Numbered from the stretch's first letter, positions 5,327 through 63,672 are shown. The stretch: DNA of 64,000 nt from an uncultured Cycloclasticus sp. (GCA_913060865.1 CAJXTU010000006.1:19009-83008), one strand, 5' to 3'. Program-made: numbers and translations. Notes: generated by a model from the letters alone, not told the origin.

Positions 5327-6496
5327 CTAGCCAAATTGCCGTTTAAAGCGCCAGACACCAAATAAAAACACCACGCTTCCTAGCATGGTAAGCCCCAGCA
5401 ATGAATCCCACAAAACAGCCAAACCCGCCCCTTTAAGCAAGATGCCATAGGCCATTTCAATATAGTAATAGAGGGGAGAGAAATACATCGCTTGGCGAAT
5501 AACTTCAGGCATGGCTTCTGGTGGCGTCCAGGCACCCGATAAAAGGATAATAGGCATCATAATCATGATAACTAGCATGGCAGCTTGGGCTAAATTTCGA
5601 CTCATGGTTGAAACAAAAAGCCCTAAGCCCGACATTGCAAAGGTATAAAGCGCCGTTACTAGAAAGAATAGCGGCAGACTGCCTTTCATCGGAACATCAA
5701 ATACACCATGAAGAATTAACCCAACACTCAGCGCCGTTCCCAATAATATAACCAGTGTCATGGAAATCACTTTCGGCAGCAGTATTTGCATCGGTGTTAA
5801 AGGAGAAACTAATAACTGTTCTATAGTACCTCGTTCTTTTTCCCGCACCGCAGCGGCGGCAGGAAGCATCATCGCCAATATCGTAATCACCGTTAATAGT
5901 TCCGATATTGACATAAACCAAGCGTCTTTCTGGTTGGGGTTGTACCAGACACGATGACGATCATCGAGCATTGGGACCGTTTCCAGGCTCTCTCCTGTTA
6001 GGCCCATTCGTTGTAGCGCGGCATCAAAACCATATTGACCAATAATCTGACTGCTGTAACTGGCCGCCAGTGAACCAAGAACGGTGTTGCTGGCATCGAC
6101 CTGCACCTGTACCGCCGCCGGCTTCCCTTGAAGTAAGTCATGCTGAAATTTAGGAGGGATGTCCAACACGACTAATGCTTCACCTTGATCTAATAATTGA
6201 ATTCCTTCCTTTTCATTAAGAATCTCACCCGATAGCTTAAAATAAGGCGGTTGAAAGCGATAAATAAGCTCTCGTGACGCCATGCTATGGTCTGAGTCAT
6301 GCACAACAACGGCCCCTTGATTAAGGTCCATCTTAACGCCACCTGCCATCAAAACATCTAAGGTAAAGAGGTAAAGAACAGCGCAGACCAAAACGGTATC
6401 ACGACCGAGTTGCAATAACTCTTTGCCGGTCATGGCAGCCATTCTTGACCACCAGTGATAGCTCTTTCCTTCTGTGATTCGCGCCATAAGGCTCAT
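5327..6496 (-). CDS. ABC-2 type exporter permease (YbhR-like)
   Basis: N-terminal TM, periplasmic loop, VREKERGTIEQLLVSP motif, five C-terminal TMs. Confidence 0.9.
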   Translation of the reverse strand: MSLMARITEGKSYHWWSRMAAMTGKELLQLGRDTVLVCAVLYLFTLDVLMAGGVKMDLNQGAVVVHDSDHSMASRELIYRFQPPYFKLSGEILNEKEGIQLLDQGEALVVLDIPPKFQHDLLQGKPAAVQVQVDASNTVLGSLAASYSSQIIGQYGFDAALQRMGLTGESLETVPMLDDRHRVWYNPNQKDAWFMSISELLTVITILAMMLPAAAAVREKERGTIEQLLVSPLTPMQILLPKVISMTLVILLGTALSVGLILHGVFDVPMKGSLPLFFLVTALYTFAMSGLGLFVSTMSRNLAQAAMLVIMIMMPIILLSGAWTPPEAMPEVIRQAMYFSPLYYYIEMAYGILLKGAGLAVLWDSLLGLTMLGSVVFLFGVWRFKRQFG

Positions 6497-36026: not shown

Positions 36027-36650
36027 ATGAACCCTCTTTATCACCGTGCCGAATACCTACTCAATGCTCCGAACTTAAAGACCACGCCCACTGACATTGA
36101 ATACGAAGTTGCTTTTGCCGGCAGATCAAACGCAGGAAAATCTAGCGCCATTAATACAATCACCAACCAAAAAAGCCTTGCTAGAACCAGTAAAACACCC
36201 GGACGAACCCAACAACTGGTTTATTTCAAGCTTGACGATCATCGCTGCTTGGTCGATCTACCAGGCTACGGCTACGCTAAAGTCCCTCCGAGCATTCAAA
36301 AAAAATGGCAAGCCGAACTTGAGCGATATTTAGAGAAAAGGAAGGCTCTTAATGGGCTCGTGTTACTCGTTGATATTCGTCGCTCGTTGGGCGAGCATGA
36401 TATGCAAATGATCGACTATGCCGCTCACTTAAACTTAGATGTCTTTATTGCACTAACAAAATCAGACAAACTTAACCGAAACACTGCCAAAAATACGTTA
36501 TTCGCCGTTCAGAAGTTATTGAAAGACTCAGCCGCTAATATTCAAGTAGAGCTATTTTCTTCGTTAAAAAAGGAAGGCATTGAGCAACTGCACACTTGGT
36601 TAGACAGTCACCTTAATACAGCTGAAATAACAGGCAAAAAAAAGCCCTAG
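36027..36650 (+). CDS. engB: GTP-binding protein EngB/YihA
   Basis: GRSNAGKSS, SKTPGRT, DLPGYG, TKSDK. Confidence 0.97.
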   Translation: MNPLYHRAEYLLNAPNLKTTPTDIEYEVAFAGRSNAGKSSAINTITNQKSLARTSKTPGRTQQLVYFKLDDHRCLVDLPGYGYAKVPPSIQKKWQAELERYLEKRKALNGLVLLVDIRRSLGEHDMQMIDYAAHLNLDVFIALTKSDKLNRNTAKNTLFAVQKLLKDSAANIQVELFSSLKKEGIEQLHTWLDSHLNTAEITGKKKP

Positions 36651-36750
36651 CGTCAAAAGTTGAACCTAGGGCCTAGTCGTTCCAGTTATAGCTAACCGGA
36701 AACTTGCTCAAGGGGAGGGGGATGTGAGCAAGCATATCTACATAGATACA
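36636..36750 (-). ncRNA. Candidate ~115 nt small RNA at the polA-engB (Spot42/ErsA) position
   Basis: Minus strand: hairpin CTTGCTCA-[CATCCCCCTCCCCT]-TGAGCAAG, hairpin TTCCGGTTA-GCTA-TAACTGGAA, terminator GCCCTAG..CTAGGGC-T8; no ORF; ECF promoter directly upstream. The 5' end is estimated from the promoter spacing. Confidence 0.65.
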
Positions 36751-36754
36751 TTCA

Positions 36755-36781
36755 ATAGAGCATATCTTTCTCATAAAGTTC
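36755..36781 (-). promoter_or_regulatory. SigmaE/AlgU-type promoter
   Basis: GAACTT-N16-TCTAT on the minus strand, preceded by an A-tract (UP-element-like). Confidence 0.7.
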
Positions 36782-36944
36782 ATTTTTTTATCTTTTTTTC
36801 GCAACATCCACATTAAAGCTGCCTTTCTTACACCTAAATCGCTATATCACACCCGCTGGATAACTTAGAGATAAAATATCACCCTCTAGAAATAGCTTCA
36901 TTAATCGGCAAAGGTGTTTTTATTTTCAGCCCACCGACTGACGG

Positions 36945-39665
36945 CTAATGTGCTTCATCCCAATTTTTCCCCGTTCCTACATCAACAATCAGCGGAACAT
37001 CCAACATCGCCGCGCCACTCATTTTTTGCTGGATAATAGCCGTCGCTTGATCCAAATAAGCCGTATCAACCTCGAACACCAATTCATCGTGTACTTGCAT
37101 CACCATTCGTACCGGTGGCTTATCTACTTGTAACCAGTCATCAACCAACAACATCGCTAACTTAATGATATCTGCCGCTGTACCTTGCATCGGCGCATTA
37201 ATGGCCGTCCGTTCCGCATATTGCCTACGTTGCCCATTTTTGGCATTAATATCAGGTAAATATAAGCGTCTACCAAATAAGGTTTCAATATAACCTTGCT
37301 CACGCGCCAACTCGCGAGTCTCATCCATATAGCGTTTTACACCGGGGTACCTGTCGAAATATAAATTGATATAGCCTTGCGCCGCACCGCGATCAATATC
37401 CAATTGCTTCGCCAAGCCAAATGCTGACATCCCGTAAATCAATCCAAAATTAATCGCTTTAGCAGAACGGCGCTGATGGCTTTCCACTTGATCTAATGGC
37501 ACACCAAACACTTCTGCTGCCGTCGCTTTATGCACATCTAAACCCTCTTTAAAGGCTTGCAAAAGCCCAGCATCTTGCGACAAATGCGCCATAATTCGCA
37601 ACTCAATTTGCGAGTAGTCGGCTGCCAACACAGTAAAGCCAGGCTCAGCGATAAACGCTTGGCGAATTCGACGACCTTCTTCGCTTCGCACTGGAATGTT
37701 CTGCAAGTTTGGATCAGATGATGACAAACGACCCGTCGCTGCTACCGCTTGATGGTATGAGGTGTGTACACGACCAGTTACTGGATTAATTTGTTTCGGT
37801 AATTTATCCGTATACGTCGAGCGTAGTTTACTAAGACTACGGTGTTCAAGAATCAATCTAGGCAATGGAAAGTCAAGCGCCAAATCCTGCAATACATTTT
37901 CCGCCGTTGACGGCTGCCCTTTCGGCGTTTTCTTTAAAACGGGCAAGCCTAGTTTATCGTACAAAATCTCTTGTATTTGCTTTGGTGAACCCAAATTAAA
38001 TGGCTGACCCGCCACATCATGAGCTTGCGTTTCAAGTATTTTAATTTTCGCTGCTAGCTCACCACTTTGCTGAGTCAACATTTGCTCATCGACCAACACG
38101 CCTATTTGTTCCATTCGTGCCAACACAGGAACGAGAGGCATTTCTATCGTTTGATAAACCTTTTTCAATGCGTCTATTTTTTCTAGTTTAGAAAAAAGCT
38201 GTTGATGTAAACGTAACGTAATATCCGCATCCTCTGCTGCGTAGGGCGCTGCCACTTCAACCGACACTTGATCAAAACATATCTGCTTGGCGCCTTTACC
38301 CGCCACATCTTCGTAATGGATAGTTTCTTGCCCTAAGTATTTCTCAGCCAATGCATCCATGTTGTGCCGCGTGGCCGTACTATTTAAAACGTAAGACTGC
38401 AGCATCGTATCGTGCTTAATACCCTTCAAGAAGATATCGTGATTTGCCAGCACATTTGCGTCATATTTAAGATTTTGACCAACTTTAGCCACATCTTCTG
38501 ATTCTAATAGTGGCTTTAATTGGTCCAATACCCATTGTCGAGACAGCTGTTCTGGTGTTCCCGGATATGTATGCGCTAAAGGCACATACGCTGCGTGACC
38601 GGCCTCAACTGCAAAGGAAACCCCCACAATCAACGCTTTGGTGTAATCTAAATCGGTTGTCTCCGTGTCAAAAGCAAACAGTTCTGCATTTGTTAGCTTC
38701 TCTAACCATGCGTTAAAAGTGGCTTCATCAAGAACAGTATCGACTGTTAATTCGACCCTAGCTGGCAAAGGCTTATCATCCACCTCTTGGCTGGCGGCAA
38801 CCTTAGTACCCGCCCCGCCACCTAGCTGCTTTAACCACGAATTAAATTCAAAGTGACTCACCATCGTATGCAACTTGCCCCGATCCGCTTCAGTTCTGAC
38901 CAAATCAGTTGGCGCTTCATTTAACGACACATCACATTTAATCGTCACCAACTCTTTTGACAGCGGAATGGCACCTAGGTGTTCACGAAGGCTTTCACCT
39001 ACTTTTCCTTTCACTTCCCCAGCACGAGAGATCAACTCATCCAACGAGCCATATTGATTCAACCACTTCGCCGCGGTTTTCGGCCCAACTTTTGGTACAC
39101 CCGGAATATTGTCTGAGGTATCCCCCATCAGCGCCAAATAATCAATAATTCTTTCTGGTGATACGCCAAACTTTTCTTTCACCCCTGCTTGATCCAAAAA
39201 TTGATTATTCATCGTGTTGATCAAAGAGATTTTAGCCGTCACTAATTGAGCAATATCTTTATCGCCTGTGGAAATAATAACGTTAAGCCCAGCCGCTTCC
39301 GCTTGCTTGGCTAATGTGCCAATAACATCATCTGCCTCAACGCCCGACTCCATAACCAATGGCAACCCCATCGCCTTTATCAATTCATGTAACGGCTTTA
39401 TTTGTTCTCGGAGTTCCTCAGGCATCGACGCCCTGTTTGCTTTGTACTCAGGATACATATCATTACGAAACGTCTTCCCTGGCGCATCGAATATCACTCC
39501 AAAATAAGCATCTGGATACGTATCGACCAACTTTTTTAACATATTGGTCACCCCCAAAATAGCATTGGTATATTCGCCTTTTGAGTTCGTCAGCAATGGC
39601 AATGCGTGATATGCACGAAATAAGTAAGAAGAGCCGTCAACGAGCACCAACGTTTTTTCTGTCAT
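36945..39665 (-). CDS. polA: DNA polymerase I
   Basis: LVDGSSYLFRAYHA, FDTETT, ADYSQIELRIMAH, RRSAKAINFGLIYG, QVHDEL; ATG at 39665. Confidence 0.99.
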   Translation of the reverse strand: MTEKTLVLVDGSSYLFRAYHALPLLTNSKGEYTNAILGVTNMLKKLVDTYPDAYFGVIFDAPGKTFRNDMYPEYKANRASMPEELREQIKPLHELIKAMGLPLVMESGVEADDVIGTLAKQAEAAGLNVIISTGDKDIAQLVTAKISLINTMNNQFLDQAGVKEKFGVSPERIIDYLALMGDTSDNIPGVPKVGPKTAAKWLNQYGSLDELISRAGEVKGKVGESLREHLGAIPLSKELVTIKCDVSLNEAPTDLVRTEADRGKLHTMVSHFEFNSWLKQLGGGAGTKVAASQEVDDKPLPARVELTVDTVLDEATFNAWLEKLTNAELFAFDTETTDLDYTKALIVGVSFAVEAGHAAYVPLAHTYPGTPEQLSRQWVLDQLKPLLESEDVAKVGQNLKYDANVLANHDIFLKGIKHDTMLQSYVLNSTATRHNMDALAEKYLGQETIHYEDVAGKGAKQICFDQVSVEVAAPYAAEDADITLRLHQQLFSKLEKIDALKKVYQTIEMPLVPVLARMEQIGVLVDEQMLTQQSGELAAKIKILETQAHDVAGQPFNLGSPKQIQEILYDKLGLPVLKKTPKGQPSTAENVLQDLALDFPLPRLILEHRSLSKLRSTYTDKLPKQINPVTGRVHTSYHQAVAATGRLSSSDPNLQNIPVRSEEGRRIRQAFIAEPGFTVLAADYSQIELRIMAHLSQDAGLLQAFKEGLDVHKATAAEVFGVPLDQVESHQRRSAKAINFGLIYGMSAFGLAKQLDIDRGAAQGYINLYFDRYPGVKRYMDETRELAREQGYIETLFGRRLYLPDINAKNGQRRQYAERTAINAPMQGTAADIIKLAMLLVDDWLQVDKPPVRMVMQVHDELVFEVDTAYLDQATAIIQQKMSGAAMLDVPLIVDVGTGKNWDEAH

Positions 39666-39802
39666 GAAAAGTATCCAATAATTTTTATATTGCCGATTAT
39701 ACCCAAGGGGCATAAGTTACACACAAACGATCTAGGTCGTTTAGTTTAGCTTTATACTATTTACATCCATCATCATGTTATGCAAAAAAACAGGGGCTGC
39801 TA

Positions 39803-57262: not shown

Positions 57263-58204
57263 CTACTCAAACTCCATTTGCCGAAACATAGTACTCGCGT
57301 TTCTAAGCGTCAACTCATCAAAAACATCTAGATGCTCATAGGCGGATTGGTCTATTTTAGTGGCATCATGCAAGGTCCCATCTTCTTCCAACAGCTGACT
57401 AATTTGTTGCCGCATGTACACTAAATAATCACGGGTGTATTTAGTCACTTCCTGCATAGTTGTTGGCCCACCATGGCCAGGAATAACGATCTGTGCGCCT
57501 AACGCCGCAAATTGATCCCATGTTTCCAGCCAAGCCGATGTGTCGGTATCTTCCATCACCGGCAAAAGGCGTTTATGAAAAGCCATATCGCCAGCAATGA
57601 CTAGCTTTTGATTCGGCAACCAAACAATAATATCGCCAGGACTATGTGACGGGCCTAAATGTAACAACTCAATCCGCTCACCGCCCATTTGTATTATTTT
57701 TTTGTCTTCGAATGTTTCATCCGGCAGTGTTAACGCGGTGCCTGCTGACTTATCCTTTCGGCCTTTTTTCATTCTATCAAGGCTCTCATGACCGTGCATT
57801 TCAAGCTCTTGTTTAGTTTCAATATGCGCAATGACTGAAACACCTTGCTCTTTCCAATAATTAGAGCCAAGAGCCGCATGGCCTTGGCCATTCTCAAGCA
57901 CTACATATTTTACGGGCTGATCGGTAATTAACTTAATGGCTTTGTGCATGGATTGCGCCAATAAGTAATTATCACTCGCATTTACCAGTAAAACCCCTTC
58001 ACTGGTGATGATAAAACTCAAATTATTGTTATGCCCTGAGTTGTCATACGTCGGCGGTGCCGTGGCGCCAATGGCTGACCAAACATTGTCGGTAACCTGT
58101 TGCGGCTGACTGAACAGCAATGAGCTCGGTGCGTTTCCTGCCAACAACAAGGTTGGCATAAAAGCGACTATTAACAAAACCAATGCCATCCACGTTTTAA
58201 TCAT
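57263..58204 (-). CDS. Exported MBL-fold protein, SoxH-like
   Basis: Signal peptide, GHNNNLSF, ENGQGH replacing HxHxDH, HSPGD, AGD, IPGHG. Confidence 0.75.
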   Translation of the reverse strand: MIKTWMALVLLIVAFMPTLLLAGNAPSSLLFSQPQQVTDNVWSAIGATAPPTYDNSGHNNNLSFIITSEGVLLVNASDNYLLAQSMHKAIKLITDQPVKYVVLENGQGHAALGSNYWKEQGVSVIAHIETKQELEMHGHESLDRMKKGRKDKSAGTALTLPDETFEDKKIIQMGGERIELLHLGPSHSPGDIIVWLPNQKLVIAGDMAFHKRLLPVMEDTDTSAWLETWDQFAALGAQIVIPGHGGPTTMQEVTKYTRDYLVYMRQQISQLLEEDGTLHDATKIDQSAYEHLDVFDELTLRNASTMFRQMEFE

Positions 58205-62144: not shown

Positions 62145-62555
62145 ATGAATATTTTTTTATCTCGTTTATCACCTAACACAACCTTGAGTGAACTTGAAAA
62201 GACAGCCCACTCATTACTCTCCAAAAAGATTCACATTCCCTTTACCGAACCAGCTACATTACGTAATTGTAAAATTATGAAAATTAAGGATGCTCACGGC
62301 GGTGTCGAATTTCACGGTCTATTAAATATAAAACCGGCCAGTGCAGGGAAGTGGTTCATTAAATCTTGCCGCTCTAAAAAAATTCATAACAAACCTTTAC
62401 TGCCTCACCAATACATCACCCGCAACTCTGCTTGGCAACCTAACTATCACAGCGAAGCCGACCATCGGCGCCCCTCTCTAACAATACGTTATATAACAAA
62501 AAACTCCCCTCCCCTTATTACAGAAGGGCTAGATAGTTTCAGAAGAGAGTATTAA
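62145..62555 (+). CDS. Hypothetical basic protein, possibly RRM-like fold
   Basis: AAGGAG RBS, MNIFLSRL...T.SEL start; Lys/Arg/His-rich. Confidence 0.65.
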   Translation: MNIFLSRLSPNTTLSELEKTAHSLLSKKIHIPFTEPATLRNCKIMKIKDAHGGVEFHGLLNIKPASAGKWFIKSCRSKKIHNKPLLPHQYITRNSAWQPNYHSEADHRRPSLTIRYITKNSPPLITEGLDSFRREY

Positions 62556-62772: not shown

Positions 62773-63672
62773 TTAAAGGCCAAATACTAAAGAAAGGTTA
62801 TATTTAAAATCATTGTTACGGGAGTCCCCTGAAGCATTTGAATCAAACTCATTCAGCAAACCCAATTTAAGGTCTATACCATTTAAGTCGTCTAGCCCAA
62901 TTATCCAACTTAATTCAGAAGTATTACGAAATTCGCCAACGTCTCTAAAGCTTGGGTATAAAGTATTTTTAAAAACCAACATATTTCTTTCTGCAATTTT
63001 CCAATCACTCTCAATGCCGATTACCCCTTCTGGAACCCATTCTGCATCTTCGCCACCAAATTCTTTACTAAACCCTAAGCCCAACCGCCCCAACACTCGC
63101 CAATTGTCTTTCTTAACAAGCTGTTCACCCAAACCACCGCCGAGACTTATTCGGTAATCCCAGTCTTCAAACTCGTCCCAATCATAGCGTCCTTCGGTAA
63201 AGTAAAAGCGTGAATCACCGGGCGTTAAGTAATCCCTTGAAAACTTTGCAAAAAAGTCACTTCTAGATGTTTCGCCAGAGTCCTCTGTACTGTTATAAGC
63301 CGCTTCTATATTCCAACGTTTATAGTCATTTTCATACTTTAACTGTGTGCCCGTATGAACATGCATATTGCGCGTATTGCCTTCACTGCCATTCACGCCT
63401 ACTTCAACAAGCCTTTTCCAACTTTGCAGCCAACCTGTGTTGAATACACCTGCATCCATAAGTTTTGGCTCTTCTAACTTCATCGGTTTTATAGCCGCAC
63501 CCACTAATACAATTGTTCCTAATACTGAGTGCTTAAGAGTGATCTCTCCACCTTCATTGTGGAGAACTTCCCCGTTTAATACATCGCCGTTGCTCAACAC
63601 CACTTCTGCGGCATGGGTCAGTGTGCCACTTAAGACCAGTAAGAAAGCACAACAGTTAAGAACTAGTTTCAT
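62773..63672 (-). CDS. DUF481-like outer-membrane beta-barrel protein
   Basis: Signal peptide, VVLSNGDVLNG domain, GSEGNT, amphipathic strands, terminal YNLSLVFGL. Confidence 0.8.
   Translation of the reverse strand: MKLVLNCCAFLLVLSGTLTHAAEVVLSNGDVLNGEVLHNEGGEITLKHSVLGTIVLVGAAIKPMKLEEPKLMDAGVFNTGWLQSWKRLVEVGVNGSEGNTRNMHVHTGTQLKYENDYKRWNIEAAYNSTEDSGETSRSDFFAKFSRDYLTPGDSRFYFTEGRYDWDEFEDWDYRISLGGGLGEQLVKKDNWRVLGRLGLGFSKEFGGEDAEWVPEGVIGIESDWKIAERNMLVFKNTLYPSFRDVGEFRNTSELSWIIGLDDLNGIDLKLGLLNEFDSNASGDSRNNDFKYNLSLVFGL

What the first reader, a model, noticed from the sequence alone, without database searches (positions are those of the whole stretch)
36636..36781. Unannotated sigmaE-type small RNA with an anti-Shine-Dalgarno loop at the Spot42/ErsA locus
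Seen on the minus strand: A-rich UP tract, GAACTT-N16-TCTAT, then about 115 nt. These contain hairpin 1 with an 8 bp perfect stem exposing CAUCCCCCUCCCCU (includes CCUCC, complementary to GGAGG), a 9 bp hairpin 2, and a GCCCUAG/CUAGGGC terminator with U8 that overlaps the last codons of engB antisense. Established: enterobacterial Spot 42 and the AlgU/sigma22-dependent Pseudomonas ErsA both lie between polA and engB. Inference: this is an envelope-stress sRNA in that syntenic slot whose sequence I do not recognise as either, probably repressing targets by occluding ribosome-binding sites.
Basis: partly seen in the sequence, partly recalled or inferred. Interest (0 to 1): 0.82.

Follow-up and report, generated by a model that had tools for sequence, protein, structure and literature searches.

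The report
Conserved C-rich-loop small RNA beside polA
This is a real, conserved and highly expressed small regulatory RNA gene of the oil-degrading marine bacterium Cycloclasticus, with a stress-type (sigma-E-like) promoter and an exposed C-rich loop, and its closest known relative in design and location is the Xanthomonas RNA sX13 rather than Spot 42 or ErsA.

Summary
On the minus strand, GAACTT (36781-36776), a 16-nt spacer and TCTAT (36759-36755) precede a ~115-nt RNA.

The promoter motif alone is not unusual in this window. What makes the element real is conservation. I found 35 distinct homologues in Cycloclasticus and a sister lineage. GAACTT is invariant in all of them. 19 of 30 base pairs show compensatory changes, and G-U/A-C asymmetry picks the minus strand.

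Three seawater metatranscriptomes show a ~45-60-nt species from this locus, in a C. pugetii-type allele. It spans the C-run through hairpin 2 and is 80 to 20,000 times deeper than engB or polA.

No Rfam family matches at its threshold: not Spot 42, and no Pseudomonas family. The sister-clade RNA gives a sub-threshold, full-length match to sX13. sX13 is a 115-nt Xanthomonas sRNA encoded downstream of polA that uses C-rich loops to repress mRNAs carrying G-rich motifs.

The most likely mechanism is a sigma-E-type, stress-induced sRNA that masks G-rich or Shine-Dalgarno sites. Sigma-E dependence, targets, transcript strand and transcript ends remain untested. I file it as a new family of a known kind, of moderate interest.

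The parts
36782..36803 (-). A-rich tract upstream of the -35 element (possible UP element)
   Evidence: Sequence. The consensus across the family is A-rich, but positions are poorly conserved (mean pairwise identity 0.36).
36776..36781 (-). -35 element GAACTT (sigma-E / ECF02 type)
   Evidence: Invariant in 32 of 32 distinct Cycloclasticus sequences (identity 1.00). It reads GGAACTT in three sister-clade loci. The pattern scan that found the homologues did not include it.
36755..36759 (-). -10 element TCTAT, 16 nt after the -35
   Evidence: The spacing is constant. 'TC' is present in 31 of 32 sequences. Variants are TCTAT, TCGAA, TCTAC, TCATA, TCGTA and others. The sister clade has GTC(A/C/G)TA.
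36636..36752 (-). Predicted primary transcript of the small RNA (~115 nt)
   Evidence: Fold z = -4.47. Covariance model R1 scores 110.6 bits, E = 2e-25, and finds a single copy in the window. The 5' end is inferred from the promoter, not mapped.
36734..36749 (-). Hairpin H0 (6 bp) at the 5' end
   Evidence: Three of six pairs show compensatory changes, for example GUAUCU/AGAUAU against GCGUCA/UGACGC.
36702..36733 (-). Hairpin H1 (9 bp) carrying the C-rich loop
   Evidence: The arms are nearly invariant (identity 0.90 and 0.94). Compensatory CUUGUUCA/UGAACAAG occurs in L030 and the sister clade.
36711..36721 (-). C-run CCCCCUCCCCU, the proposed seed (complement GGGGAGGGGG contains GGAGG)
   Evidence: Identity is 0.89, while the 5' part of the same loop scores 0.25. 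The run lies inside the highly abundant RNA species.
36680..36701 (-). Hairpin H2
   Evidence: All 7 modelled pairs show compensatory changes.
36636..36674 (-). Intrinsic terminator (9-bp stem, 15-nt loop, U8)
   Evidence: Six of nine pairs are compensatory. Positions 36636-36650 overlap the engB 3' end.
36677..36724 (-). Window equivalent of the abundant ~45-60-nt RNA species seen in metatranscriptomes
   Evidence: Mapped on L048 at 1618-1670/1678. The same contigs lie on window 36685-36723, where the two alleles agree. The strand is not determined by the reads.
36027..36650 (+). engB (yihA/ysxC), convergent with the sRNA
   Evidence: TIGR03598, 230.6 bits.
36945..39713 (-). polA, upstream of the sRNA on the same strand
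   Evidence: NF004397, 1224.7 bits.

Best explanation
An independent small-RNA gene lies between polA and engB. Transcription most likely starts about 36750 from an ECF02/sigma-E-type promoter (GAACTT-N16-TCTAT). It ends at the U8 terminator at 36636, giving a ~115-nt RNA with four hairpins.

The functional element is the exposed C-run (CCCCCUCCCC) in hairpin 1. It pairs with G-rich, Shine-Dalgarno-like sequences near the start codons of target mRNAs, blocks ribosome binding and lowers their translation or stability. This is how Xanthomonas sX13 works.

The primary transcript appears to be trimmed to a very abundant ~50-nt core consisting of the C-run, the 3' arm of hairpin 1 and hairpin 2.

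Shown here:
- The gene is real, non-coding and structured on the minus strand.
- The promoter motif and the C-run are under selection.
- The locus yields a highly abundant short RNA in nature.

Inferred:
- Sigma-E dependence.
- The transcript's strand and 5' end.
- Processing to the core.
- The anti-Shine-Dalgarno mechanism and the identity of the targets.
For: Structure:
- Fold z = -4.47.
- The family has 32 distinct Cycloclasticus sequences plus 3 sister-clade sequences, all at the engB 3' end.
- 96.4% of cells are paired. 19 of 30 pairs show compensatory changes, against 9.5 +/- 1.7 in shuffles. Register-shift controls give 27-48% paired.
- G-U 107 against A-C 17 in the helices picks the minus strand.

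Promoter:
- The -35 is invariant and the -10 'TC' sits at fixed spacing. This is true in loci recovered without using the promoter in the search and in the sister clade.

Seed:
- The C-run and the hairpin 1 arms score 0.89-0.94 identity. Hairpin 2 scores about 0.6 and the linkers about 0.3.
- In the sister clade, C-rich motifs sit in the loops of hairpin 2 and the terminator.

Not coding:
- The 46-aa ORF is not conserved.

Expression:
- Depth peaks at 6,314, 413,019 and 6,013 over the core, against 20-78 in engB and polA, in three metatranscriptomes. Adapter junctions mark discrete ends.
- Three further runs of unrecorded type, probably DNA, show no peak.

Comparison with sX13:
- The sX13 model aligns full-length to the sister-clade RNA at 26.2 bits.
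- sX13 lies downstream of polA, is 115 nt, has C-rich loops, represses mRNAs with G-rich motifs and accumulates under stress.
Against: - No rpoE or rseA was found in the window or in the 524 kb I held, so the presence of the sigma factor in this organism is assumed.
- The promoter motif alone is expected by chance about 0.6 times per window.
- The abundant RNA does not include the 5' hairpin or the terminator. Those regions are at baseline depth. The predicted ends are therefore not confirmed, and the libraries are unstranded.
- The expression evidence comes from a different allele (C. pugetii type), not from the window's own strain. The one RNA run holding the window's allele shows only a low-depth engB contig.
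- No convincing target lies in the window. The best duplex, -16.2 kcal/mol, is within the top ~2% of background. None was found in the other loci either.
- All Rfam matches are below threshold.
- One sister-clade member (L080) has no C-run in hairpin 1.
Confidence: 0.6

Rival explanations
1. It is a diverged orthologue of Pseudomonas ErsA, and more distantly of Spot 42. On this reading the same ancestral gene kept its place and its sigma-E/AlgU promoter but changed its body, and it regulates through an ErsA-like mechanism rather than an sX13-like one.
For: It has the same slot and orientation between polA and engB, and the same wider synteny: cytochrome c genes, engB, polA, then thrB nearby. 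ersA lies in the polA-engB spacer and is sigma-22-driven.
Against: ErsA is 132 nt with three stem-loops and a 34-nt U-rich unstructured seed. Here there are four hairpins, no long unstructured U-rich domain, and a C-rich loop. No Pseudomonas or Spot 42 family appears even at E <= 10. I could not obtain an ErsA sequence to compare directly.
Confidence: 0.2
2. The abundant RNA is made from the plus strand, as a stable fragment of the engB 3' untranslated region. The minus-strand promoter and terminator would then be secondary or act only as an antisense partner.
For: The libraries are unstranded: the same adapter type abuts both ends. engB has no obvious intrinsic terminator of its own before this region. 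The plus-strand version of the fragment also folds well (-17.7 kcal/mol).
Against: G-U/A-C asymmetry (107 against 17) favours the minus strand. The conserved promoter and the U-tract terminator are both on the minus strand. Depth is 80 to 20,000 times that of the engB coding region, which is hard to reach from an mRNA fragment.
Confidence: 0.1
3. Its main role is local. It would act as a convergent or antisense terminator module that controls engB 3'-end formation or stability, or insulates polA from engB, with no targets elsewhere.
For: The element always stays attached to the engB 3' end, even where polA has been separated from it by another gene. In the window it overlaps the last five engB codons and the stop.
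Against: In most relatives EngB is 199-200 aa and stops before the terminator, so the overlap is lineage-specific. A terminator module would not need an invariant -35, an invariant C-run or such abundance.
Confidence: 0.07
4. It is a protein-binding or sponge RNA, in which the C-rich loops titrate a protein or a G-rich RNA rather than repressing mRNAs directly.
For: The abundance is extremely high. The arms of hairpin 1 are conserved in sequence with little covariation, which fits recognition of a specific sequence.
Against: No known bacterial protein family is tied to CCCCUCCCC loops at this locus. The characterised relatives in design (sX13 and others) act by pairing with G-rich mRNA motifs.
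Confidence: 0.05

Closest known systems
sX13 (Rfam RF02232), Xanthomonadaceae
   Same: - About 115 nt.
- Encoded just downstream of polA.
- Strongly structured, with stable stems and apical C-rich loops.
- Abundant, and accumulates under stress (salt, 37 C).
- Represses mRNAs through G-rich motifs at or near the ribosome-binding site.
- The sX13 model aligns end to end with the sister-clade homologue L076 and is its best Rfam match.
   Different: - Scores are below threshold: 26.2 bits against a gathering score of 50. The window's own RNA gives no sX13 match at E <= 10.
- The Cycloclasticus form has one long C-run in one loop rather than three 4-5C loops, plus an extra 5' hairpin.
- The downstream neighbour is engB, not XCV4199.
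- Its promoter is sigma-E-type, and I found no published promoter class for sX13.
- sX13 is reported only in Xanthomonadaceae.
ErsA of Pseudomonas aeruginosa
   Same: It lies in the polA-engB spacer and is transcribed from an envelope-stress (sigma-22/AlgU, sigma-E-type) promoter. It is of similar size at 132 nt.
   Different: ErsA has three stem-loops and a 34-nt U-rich unstructured seed domain and depends on Hfq. Here there are four hairpins and a C-rich loop. Sequence similarity could not be tested.
Spot 42 (spf, RF00021)
   Same: It occupies the same slot and orientation between polA and engB/yihA.
   Different: There is no match to the Rfam model at any threshold tried. Spot 42 is repressed by CRP-cAMP and acts on carbon metabolism through unstructured regions (and established knowledge). 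The promoter here is a different type.
Sigma-E-dependent sRNAs MicA, RybB, MicL, VrrA, MicV
   Same: They share the promoter type, the small size, an intrinsic terminator and the expected role of lowering synthesis of envelope proteins under stress (established knowledge).
   Different: None of these families matches. Their seeds are not C-rich loops. Their dependence on Hfq is known, whereas it is unknown here.
Other C-rich-loop sRNAs: anti-hemB (RF02837), alpha-r7 (RF02342), 6C, beta-proteobacterial toxic sRNA, RsaE
   Same: All have exposed C-rich motifs in hairpin loops that pair with G-rich or Shine-Dalgarno sequences. Alpha-r7 is also encoded at the polA locus. Weak matches to these models appear.
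   Different: All matches are far below threshold: 15-22 bits against gathering scores of 47-60.

Membership tests
Spot 42 (RF00021) | Match to the Rfam covariance model at the gathering score | tested here: not met
   No match at gathering threshold over the whole window, and none at E <= 10 over 36500-37000.
Spot 42 (RF00021) | Gene between polA and engB/yihA, same strand as polA | tested here: met
   polA is at 36945-39713 (-), the sRNA on (-), and engB at 36027-36650 (+).
Spot 42 (RF00021) | Sigma-70 promoter repressed by CRP-cAMP | tested here: not met
   No sigma-70-like site lies in the spacer. A conserved GAACTT-N16-TC motif is there instead. I did not search for a CRP site.
ErsA | Located in the polA-engB spacer | tested here: met
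   ersA location is from PMC8575079.
ErsA | Sigma-22/AlgU (sigma-E-type) promoter | tested here: met
   The motif is present and conserved in all 35 homologues. This tests the motif only, not dependence on the sigma factor.
ErsA | Three stem-loops with a 34-nt U-rich unstructured seed domain | tested here: not met
   There are four hairpins with short linkers, and the conserved single-stranded element is C-rich.
ErsA | Sequence or model similarity to ErsA | not testable with these tools
   I could fetch no ErsA sequence or Pseudomonas locus. No Pseudomonas sRNA family appeared at E <= 10, but I could not confirm that Rfam holds an ErsA model.
sX13 (RF02232) | Match to the Rfam covariance model at the gathering score (50 bits) | tested here: not met
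   The window's RNA gives no match at E <= 10. The sister-clade L076 scores 26.2 bits over the full length (E = 0.12 over 11.5 kb; 0.0019 over 181 nt).
sX13 (RF02232) | Encoded downstream of polA | tested here: met
   The promoter lies 164-190 nt after the polA stop. sX13 lies 175 bp after polA.
sX13 (RF02232) | About 115 nt, stable stems, apical C-rich loops | tested here: met
   The window RNA has one loop with CCCCCUCCCC. The sister clade has C-rich loops in hairpin 1, hairpin 2 and the terminator.
sX13 (RF02232) | Represses mRNAs through G-rich motifs near the start codon; independent of Hfq | not testable with these tools
   Only 64 kb of the genome was available, and it contained no convincing target.
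Sigma-E-dependent sRNAs (functional class) | Transcription depends on RpoE/AlgU | not testable with these tools
   No rpoE lies in the window or in the loci I held. No expression data under defined stress were available.
Sigma-E-dependent sRNAs (functional class) | Membership of MicA, RybB, MicL, VrrA or MicV | tested here: not met
   No match to any of them.

The most novel reading that the evidence does not exclude
The spot just downstream of polA may be one ancient small-RNA locus kept across Proteobacteria: Spot 42, ErsA, sX13, alpha-r7 and this family. On this reading the Cycloclasticus family and its sister clade form a bridge, combining an ErsA-like sigma-E promoter and engB neighbour with sX13-like C-rich loops. 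That would imply that sX13-type RNAs are part of the envelope-stress regulon. It would also imply that a ~50-nt processed core lacking a terminator is among the most abundant transcripts of a key oil-degrading bacterium in the sea.
Probability: 0.25. Interest if true: 0.75.

Novelty: new member of a known kind. Interest (0 to 1): 0.52.

Why it matters
Cycloclasticus is a main degrader of aromatic hydrocarbons in the ocean, and hydrocarbons damage cell envelopes. I found no report of small RNAs in this genus. An RNA that reaches 80 to 20,000 times the depth of its neighbours in natural samples and carries an envelope-stress promoter is a strong candidate for a central stress regulator, and a possible marker of stress in situ.

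The authors of the sX13 study asked whether the polA locus of other bacteria also encodes C-rich-loop sRNAs. This family answers yes for a second gammaproteobacterial lineage. It also gives a concrete, testable link between sX13-type RNAs and the sigma-E response.

Tried and rejected
- **Coding gene.** The 46-aa ORF at 36673-36813 starts upstream of the promoter. In 32 homologues it varies from 0 to 44 aa in different frames, so I rejected it. It matches no protein family.
- **Known RNA family.** Rfam gives nothing at gathering threshold over the whole window. In permissive mode it gives only weak anti-hemB, NsiR1 and snoR41 matches.
- **Second copy.** The covariance model finds only one copy in the window and none in the outgroups. 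The G-rich element at 62500-62525 is not a sibling and does not fold better than shuffles.
- **Expression of the window's own allele.** One metatranscriptome holds only a low-depth engB contig. Four other RNA runs hold nothing. Runs for the mussel-symbiont allele were not indexed.
- **Pure-culture transcriptomes.** They give only long, flat contigs that cannot show transcript ends.
- **Targets.** A duplex scan of 60 gene starts in the window gave nothing beyond background. A motif scan of 524 kb of held sequence also gave nothing.
- **rpoE and hfq.** Neither is in the window or the loci. I found no paper on rpoE in Cycloclasticus.
- **ErsA sequence.** I could not fetch it.
- I repeated it with the equivalent metagenome locus.

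Full report
**1. What is in the sequence**

Reading the minus strand from 36811 down to 36630 shows the following elements in order:
- an A-rich tract;
- GAACTT at 36781-36776, a 16-nt spacer, and TCTAT at 36759-36755;
- hairpin 1 (36733-36702), with eight Watson-Crick pairs plus a closing G-U, exposing CAUCCCCCUCCCCU;
- hairpin 2 (36701-36680);
- a five-base linker;
- a terminator hairpin (36674-36642) followed by eight U (36643-36636).

The stretch folds at -41.9 kcal/mol against -26.3 +/- 3.5 for shuffles (z = -4.47).

The flanking genes are engB (36027-36650, plus strand) and polA (36945-39713, minus strand). Two cytochrome c genes lie beyond engB, and a LOG-family gene and thrB lie beyond polA. 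The terminator's 3' arm and U-tract are antisense to the last codons of engB...KKKP-stop.

**2. Is it more than chance?**

The promoter motif alone is not. GAACTT-N16-TCNWW occurs once in the window against 0.58 expected, and 46 of 100 shuffles have at least one match. The case rests on relatives.

The EngB protein places the window in Cycloclasticus, with 93% identity to an uncultured Cycloclasticus. Ten species-level genomes carry the element at the engB 3' end. Four of these have another gene between it and polA.

I then scanned public metagenome contigs with a pattern that specified only the hairpin 1 arms and the C-run. The scan returned 38 stretches:
- 27 are family members. Every one has TGAACTT at the same distance upstream and a U-tract terminator downstream.
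- 11 are unrelated chance matches with neither feature.

The result is 32 distinct sequences (alignment A3). Mean pairwise identity by segment:

| Segment | Identity |
|---|---|
| -35 element | 1.00 |
| Hairpin 1 arms | 0.90 / 0.94 |
| C-run | 0.89 |
| Hairpin 2 | about 0.6 |
| Linker | 0.28 |
| 5' part of the hairpin 1 loop | 0.25 |
| Upstream region | 0.36 |

The -10 keeps 'TC' in 31 of 32 sequences at constant spacing.

**3. Structure and strand**

On A3, 91.4% of cells pair and 15 pairs show changes on both sides (8.8 +/- 1.6 in shuffles). Shifted registers give 30-49% paired.

After adding a deeper Cycloclasticus member (L030) and three sister-clade loci, the model-based alignment A5 gives 96.4% paired. 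19 of 30 pairs are compensatory: 3 of 6 in H0, 3 of 8 in hairpin 1, 7 of 7 in hairpin 2 and 6 of 9 in the terminator. A5 was fitted to the model, so it leans towards the structure. A3 was not, and it agrees.

G-U pairs outnumber A-C mismatches 107 to 17, so the helices work on the minus strand and not on its complement.

The 46-aa ORF across the region is not conserved. This is a structured non-coding RNA gene.

**4. Distribution**

The covariance model R1 finds one copy in the window (110.6 bits). It finds none at the engB 3' end of several outgroups: Methylococcaceae, Beggiatoa, Acinetobacter, Oceanospirillaceae, Lysobacterales and Methyloprofundus.

It does find homologues in three metagenome loci: L076, L080 and L082.
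- Their EngB is about 58-60% identical to the window's.
- They share the synteny ResB, cytochrome c, cytochrome c, engB / polA.
- The matches score 33-42 bits, with E between 2e-7 and 3e-9.
- They carry GGAACTT-N16-GTC(A/C/G)TA.
- Their H0 and hairpin 1 are compensated: GCGUCA/UGACGC and GCUUGUU/AACAAGC.
- They have C-rich motifs in the hairpin 2 loop (AUCCCCA) and the terminator loop (CCUUCCCCCUCUCC). The hairpin 1 loop is less C-rich, and in L080 it is not C-rich at all.

So the promoter type, the four-hairpin plan and the exposed C-rich loops are the conserved themes. Which loop carries the C-run varies.

One Cycloclasticus subclade (L031/L032) has a remodelled version. Its -35 is broken (GAAAGCTT), and H0 and part of hairpin 1 are missing.

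**5. Expression**

No RNA run held the window's own allele beyond a low-depth engB contig.

The C. pugetii-type allele (locus L048; sRNA on the minus strand at 1577-1697) is held by many RNA runs. Pure-culture transcriptomes give only long flat contigs and are uninformative.

Three seawater metatranscriptomes from one study show a sharp peak:

| Run | Peak depth, about 1618-1670 | Depth in engB and polA |
|---|---|---|
| X40 | 6,314 | 52-78 |
| X41 | 413,019 | 20-27 |
| X45 | 6,013 | 30 (engB only; no polA coverage) |

Sequencing adapters abut position 1618 in all three runs, and positions 1660-1678 on the other side. Three other runs that hold the locus have no recorded library type and are probably DNA. 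They show long contigs and no peak.

The species runs from the start of the hairpin 1 loop through the C-run and hairpin 2, into the U-rich linker. H0 and the terminator are at baseline depth. In window coordinates this is about 36724 to 36677, and the shared part of the contigs lies on 36685-36723.

The same adapter type occurs at both ends, so the libraries are unstranded. The reads do not give the strand, and the predicted ends (about 36750 and 36636) are not confirmed.

My reading is a primary transcript trimmed at both ends to a stable core that carries the seed at its 5' end. This is an inference.

**6. Mechanism**

The promoter matches the RpoE/AlgU (ECF02) consensus: GGAACTT, 16 nt, then (G)TCnnA. 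The consensus itself is established knowledge.

The conserved single-stranded element, CCCCCUCCCC, is complementary to GGGGAGGGGG, which contains the Shine-Dalgarno core GGAGG. Some members carry the variant CCCCCUUCCC, which could still pair with the same G-rich site through G-U.

The most likely mode of action is pairing with G-rich ribosome-binding regions to lower translation during envelope stress.

I could not name targets. The best duplex among 60 gene starts in the window is -16.2 kcal/mol, within the top 2% of random sites. Nothing better appears in 524 kb of held sequence. No rpoE or hfq gene lies in that sequence either.

**7. Comparison with known RNAs**

- **Spot 42.** Same slot, but no model match at any threshold, and a different promoter type.
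- **ErsA.** Same slot and the same kind of promoter. But ErsA is described as 132 nt with three stem-loops and a 34-nt U-rich unstructured seed. That is not what is here. I could not fetch its sequence.
- **sX13.** This is the closest known RNA. The sX13 Rfam model is the best match to the sister-clade RNA and aligns over its full length. The score is 26.2 bits against a threshold of 50, so this is a lead and not membership. sX13 is 115 nt and lies 175 bp downstream of polA. It has three stable stems with apical 4-5C loops, is abundant, and rises under salt and heat. It represses mRNAs through G-rich motifs at or near the ribosome-binding site without Hfq. Its authors noted that Spot 42 and alpha-r7 also lie at polA, and asked whether other bacteria encode similar RNAs there.
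- **Other C-rich-loop families.** Weak matches also appear to anti-hemB, alpha-r7, 6C and the beta-proteobacterial toxic sRNA.

I found no paper linking sX13 to sigma-E and none on small RNAs in Cycloclasticus.

**8. Verdict**

This is a real, conserved and highly expressed small RNA gene. It forms a new family that is not in Rfam. It belongs to a known kind, the C-rich-loop repressor RNAs of the polA locus, and carries a sigma-E-type promoter. The gene, the promoter motif, the loop and the synteny hold. Sigma-E dependence, targets and transcript ends are open. sX13 is a better comparator than Spot 42 or ErsA.

Noticed in passing
L076:2108-2260, L080:1635-1800, L082:975-1140 (minus strand of each locus): A sister lineage (EngB 58-60% identical, GC 0.49-0.57, organism unknown) has a homologous sRNA with the same promoter type. 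Its C-rich motifs have moved to the loops of hairpin 2 and the terminator. The L076 copy is the sequence that weakly matches the sX13 model.
   Followed up: partly
L031:3102-3252 and L032:2105-2244: One Cycloclasticus subclade (EngB 78% identical) has a remodelled spacer. The -35 is interrupted (GAAAGCTT). The 5' hairpin and the 3' arm of hairpin 1 are gone. A C/U-rich stretch, hairpin 2 and the terminator remain. The model no longer detects it (9 bits). It may be a decaying or rewired copy.
   Followed up: partly
window 36630-36650; EngB lengths: EngB is 207 aa in the window's lineage but 199-200 aa in most Cycloclasticus. The extra residues (...GKKKP) are read from the sRNA terminator's U-tract and stem, so the gene overlap is a lineage-specific C-terminal extension.
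   Followed up: partly
L002, L004, L008, L010 and several metagenome loci (e.g. L036, L051, L057, L067), upstream of the sRNA promoter: In these genomes polA is not the upstream neighbour. In L002, L004 and L008 a divergently transcribed gene with a strong GAGGAG ribosome-binding site sits there instead. The sRNA stays attached to engB.
   Followed up: no
window 62500-62525 (minus strand): AAGGGGAGGGGAGUUUUUU is complementary to 11 nt of the sRNA C-run. It lies about 260 nt downstream of a DUF481 protein gene (62773-63672, an outer-membrane family from my own knowledge). The region does not fold better than shuffles (z = 0.2), so this may be chance.
   Followed up: partly
L048:1618 (equivalent to about window 36677): The abundant RNA species has one very sharp end in the U-rich linker after hairpin 2 in all three metatranscriptomes. 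The other end is ragged (1660-1678). This suggests a defined cleavage or termination site upstream of the canonical terminator.
   Followed up: partly
window 36489-36644: In the one metatranscriptome that holds the window's own allele, a 156-nt low-depth contig covers the end of engB and stops inside the A8/U8 tract.
   Followed up: no
window 57263-58204 (minus strand): This is a metallo-beta-lactamase-fold protein. Its best match is to quinoprotein relay system zinc metallohydrolases, with weaker matches to class B beta-lactamase models, all far below their cut-offs. Its start region gave the best (still unremarkable) predicted duplex with the sRNA seed.
   Followed up: no
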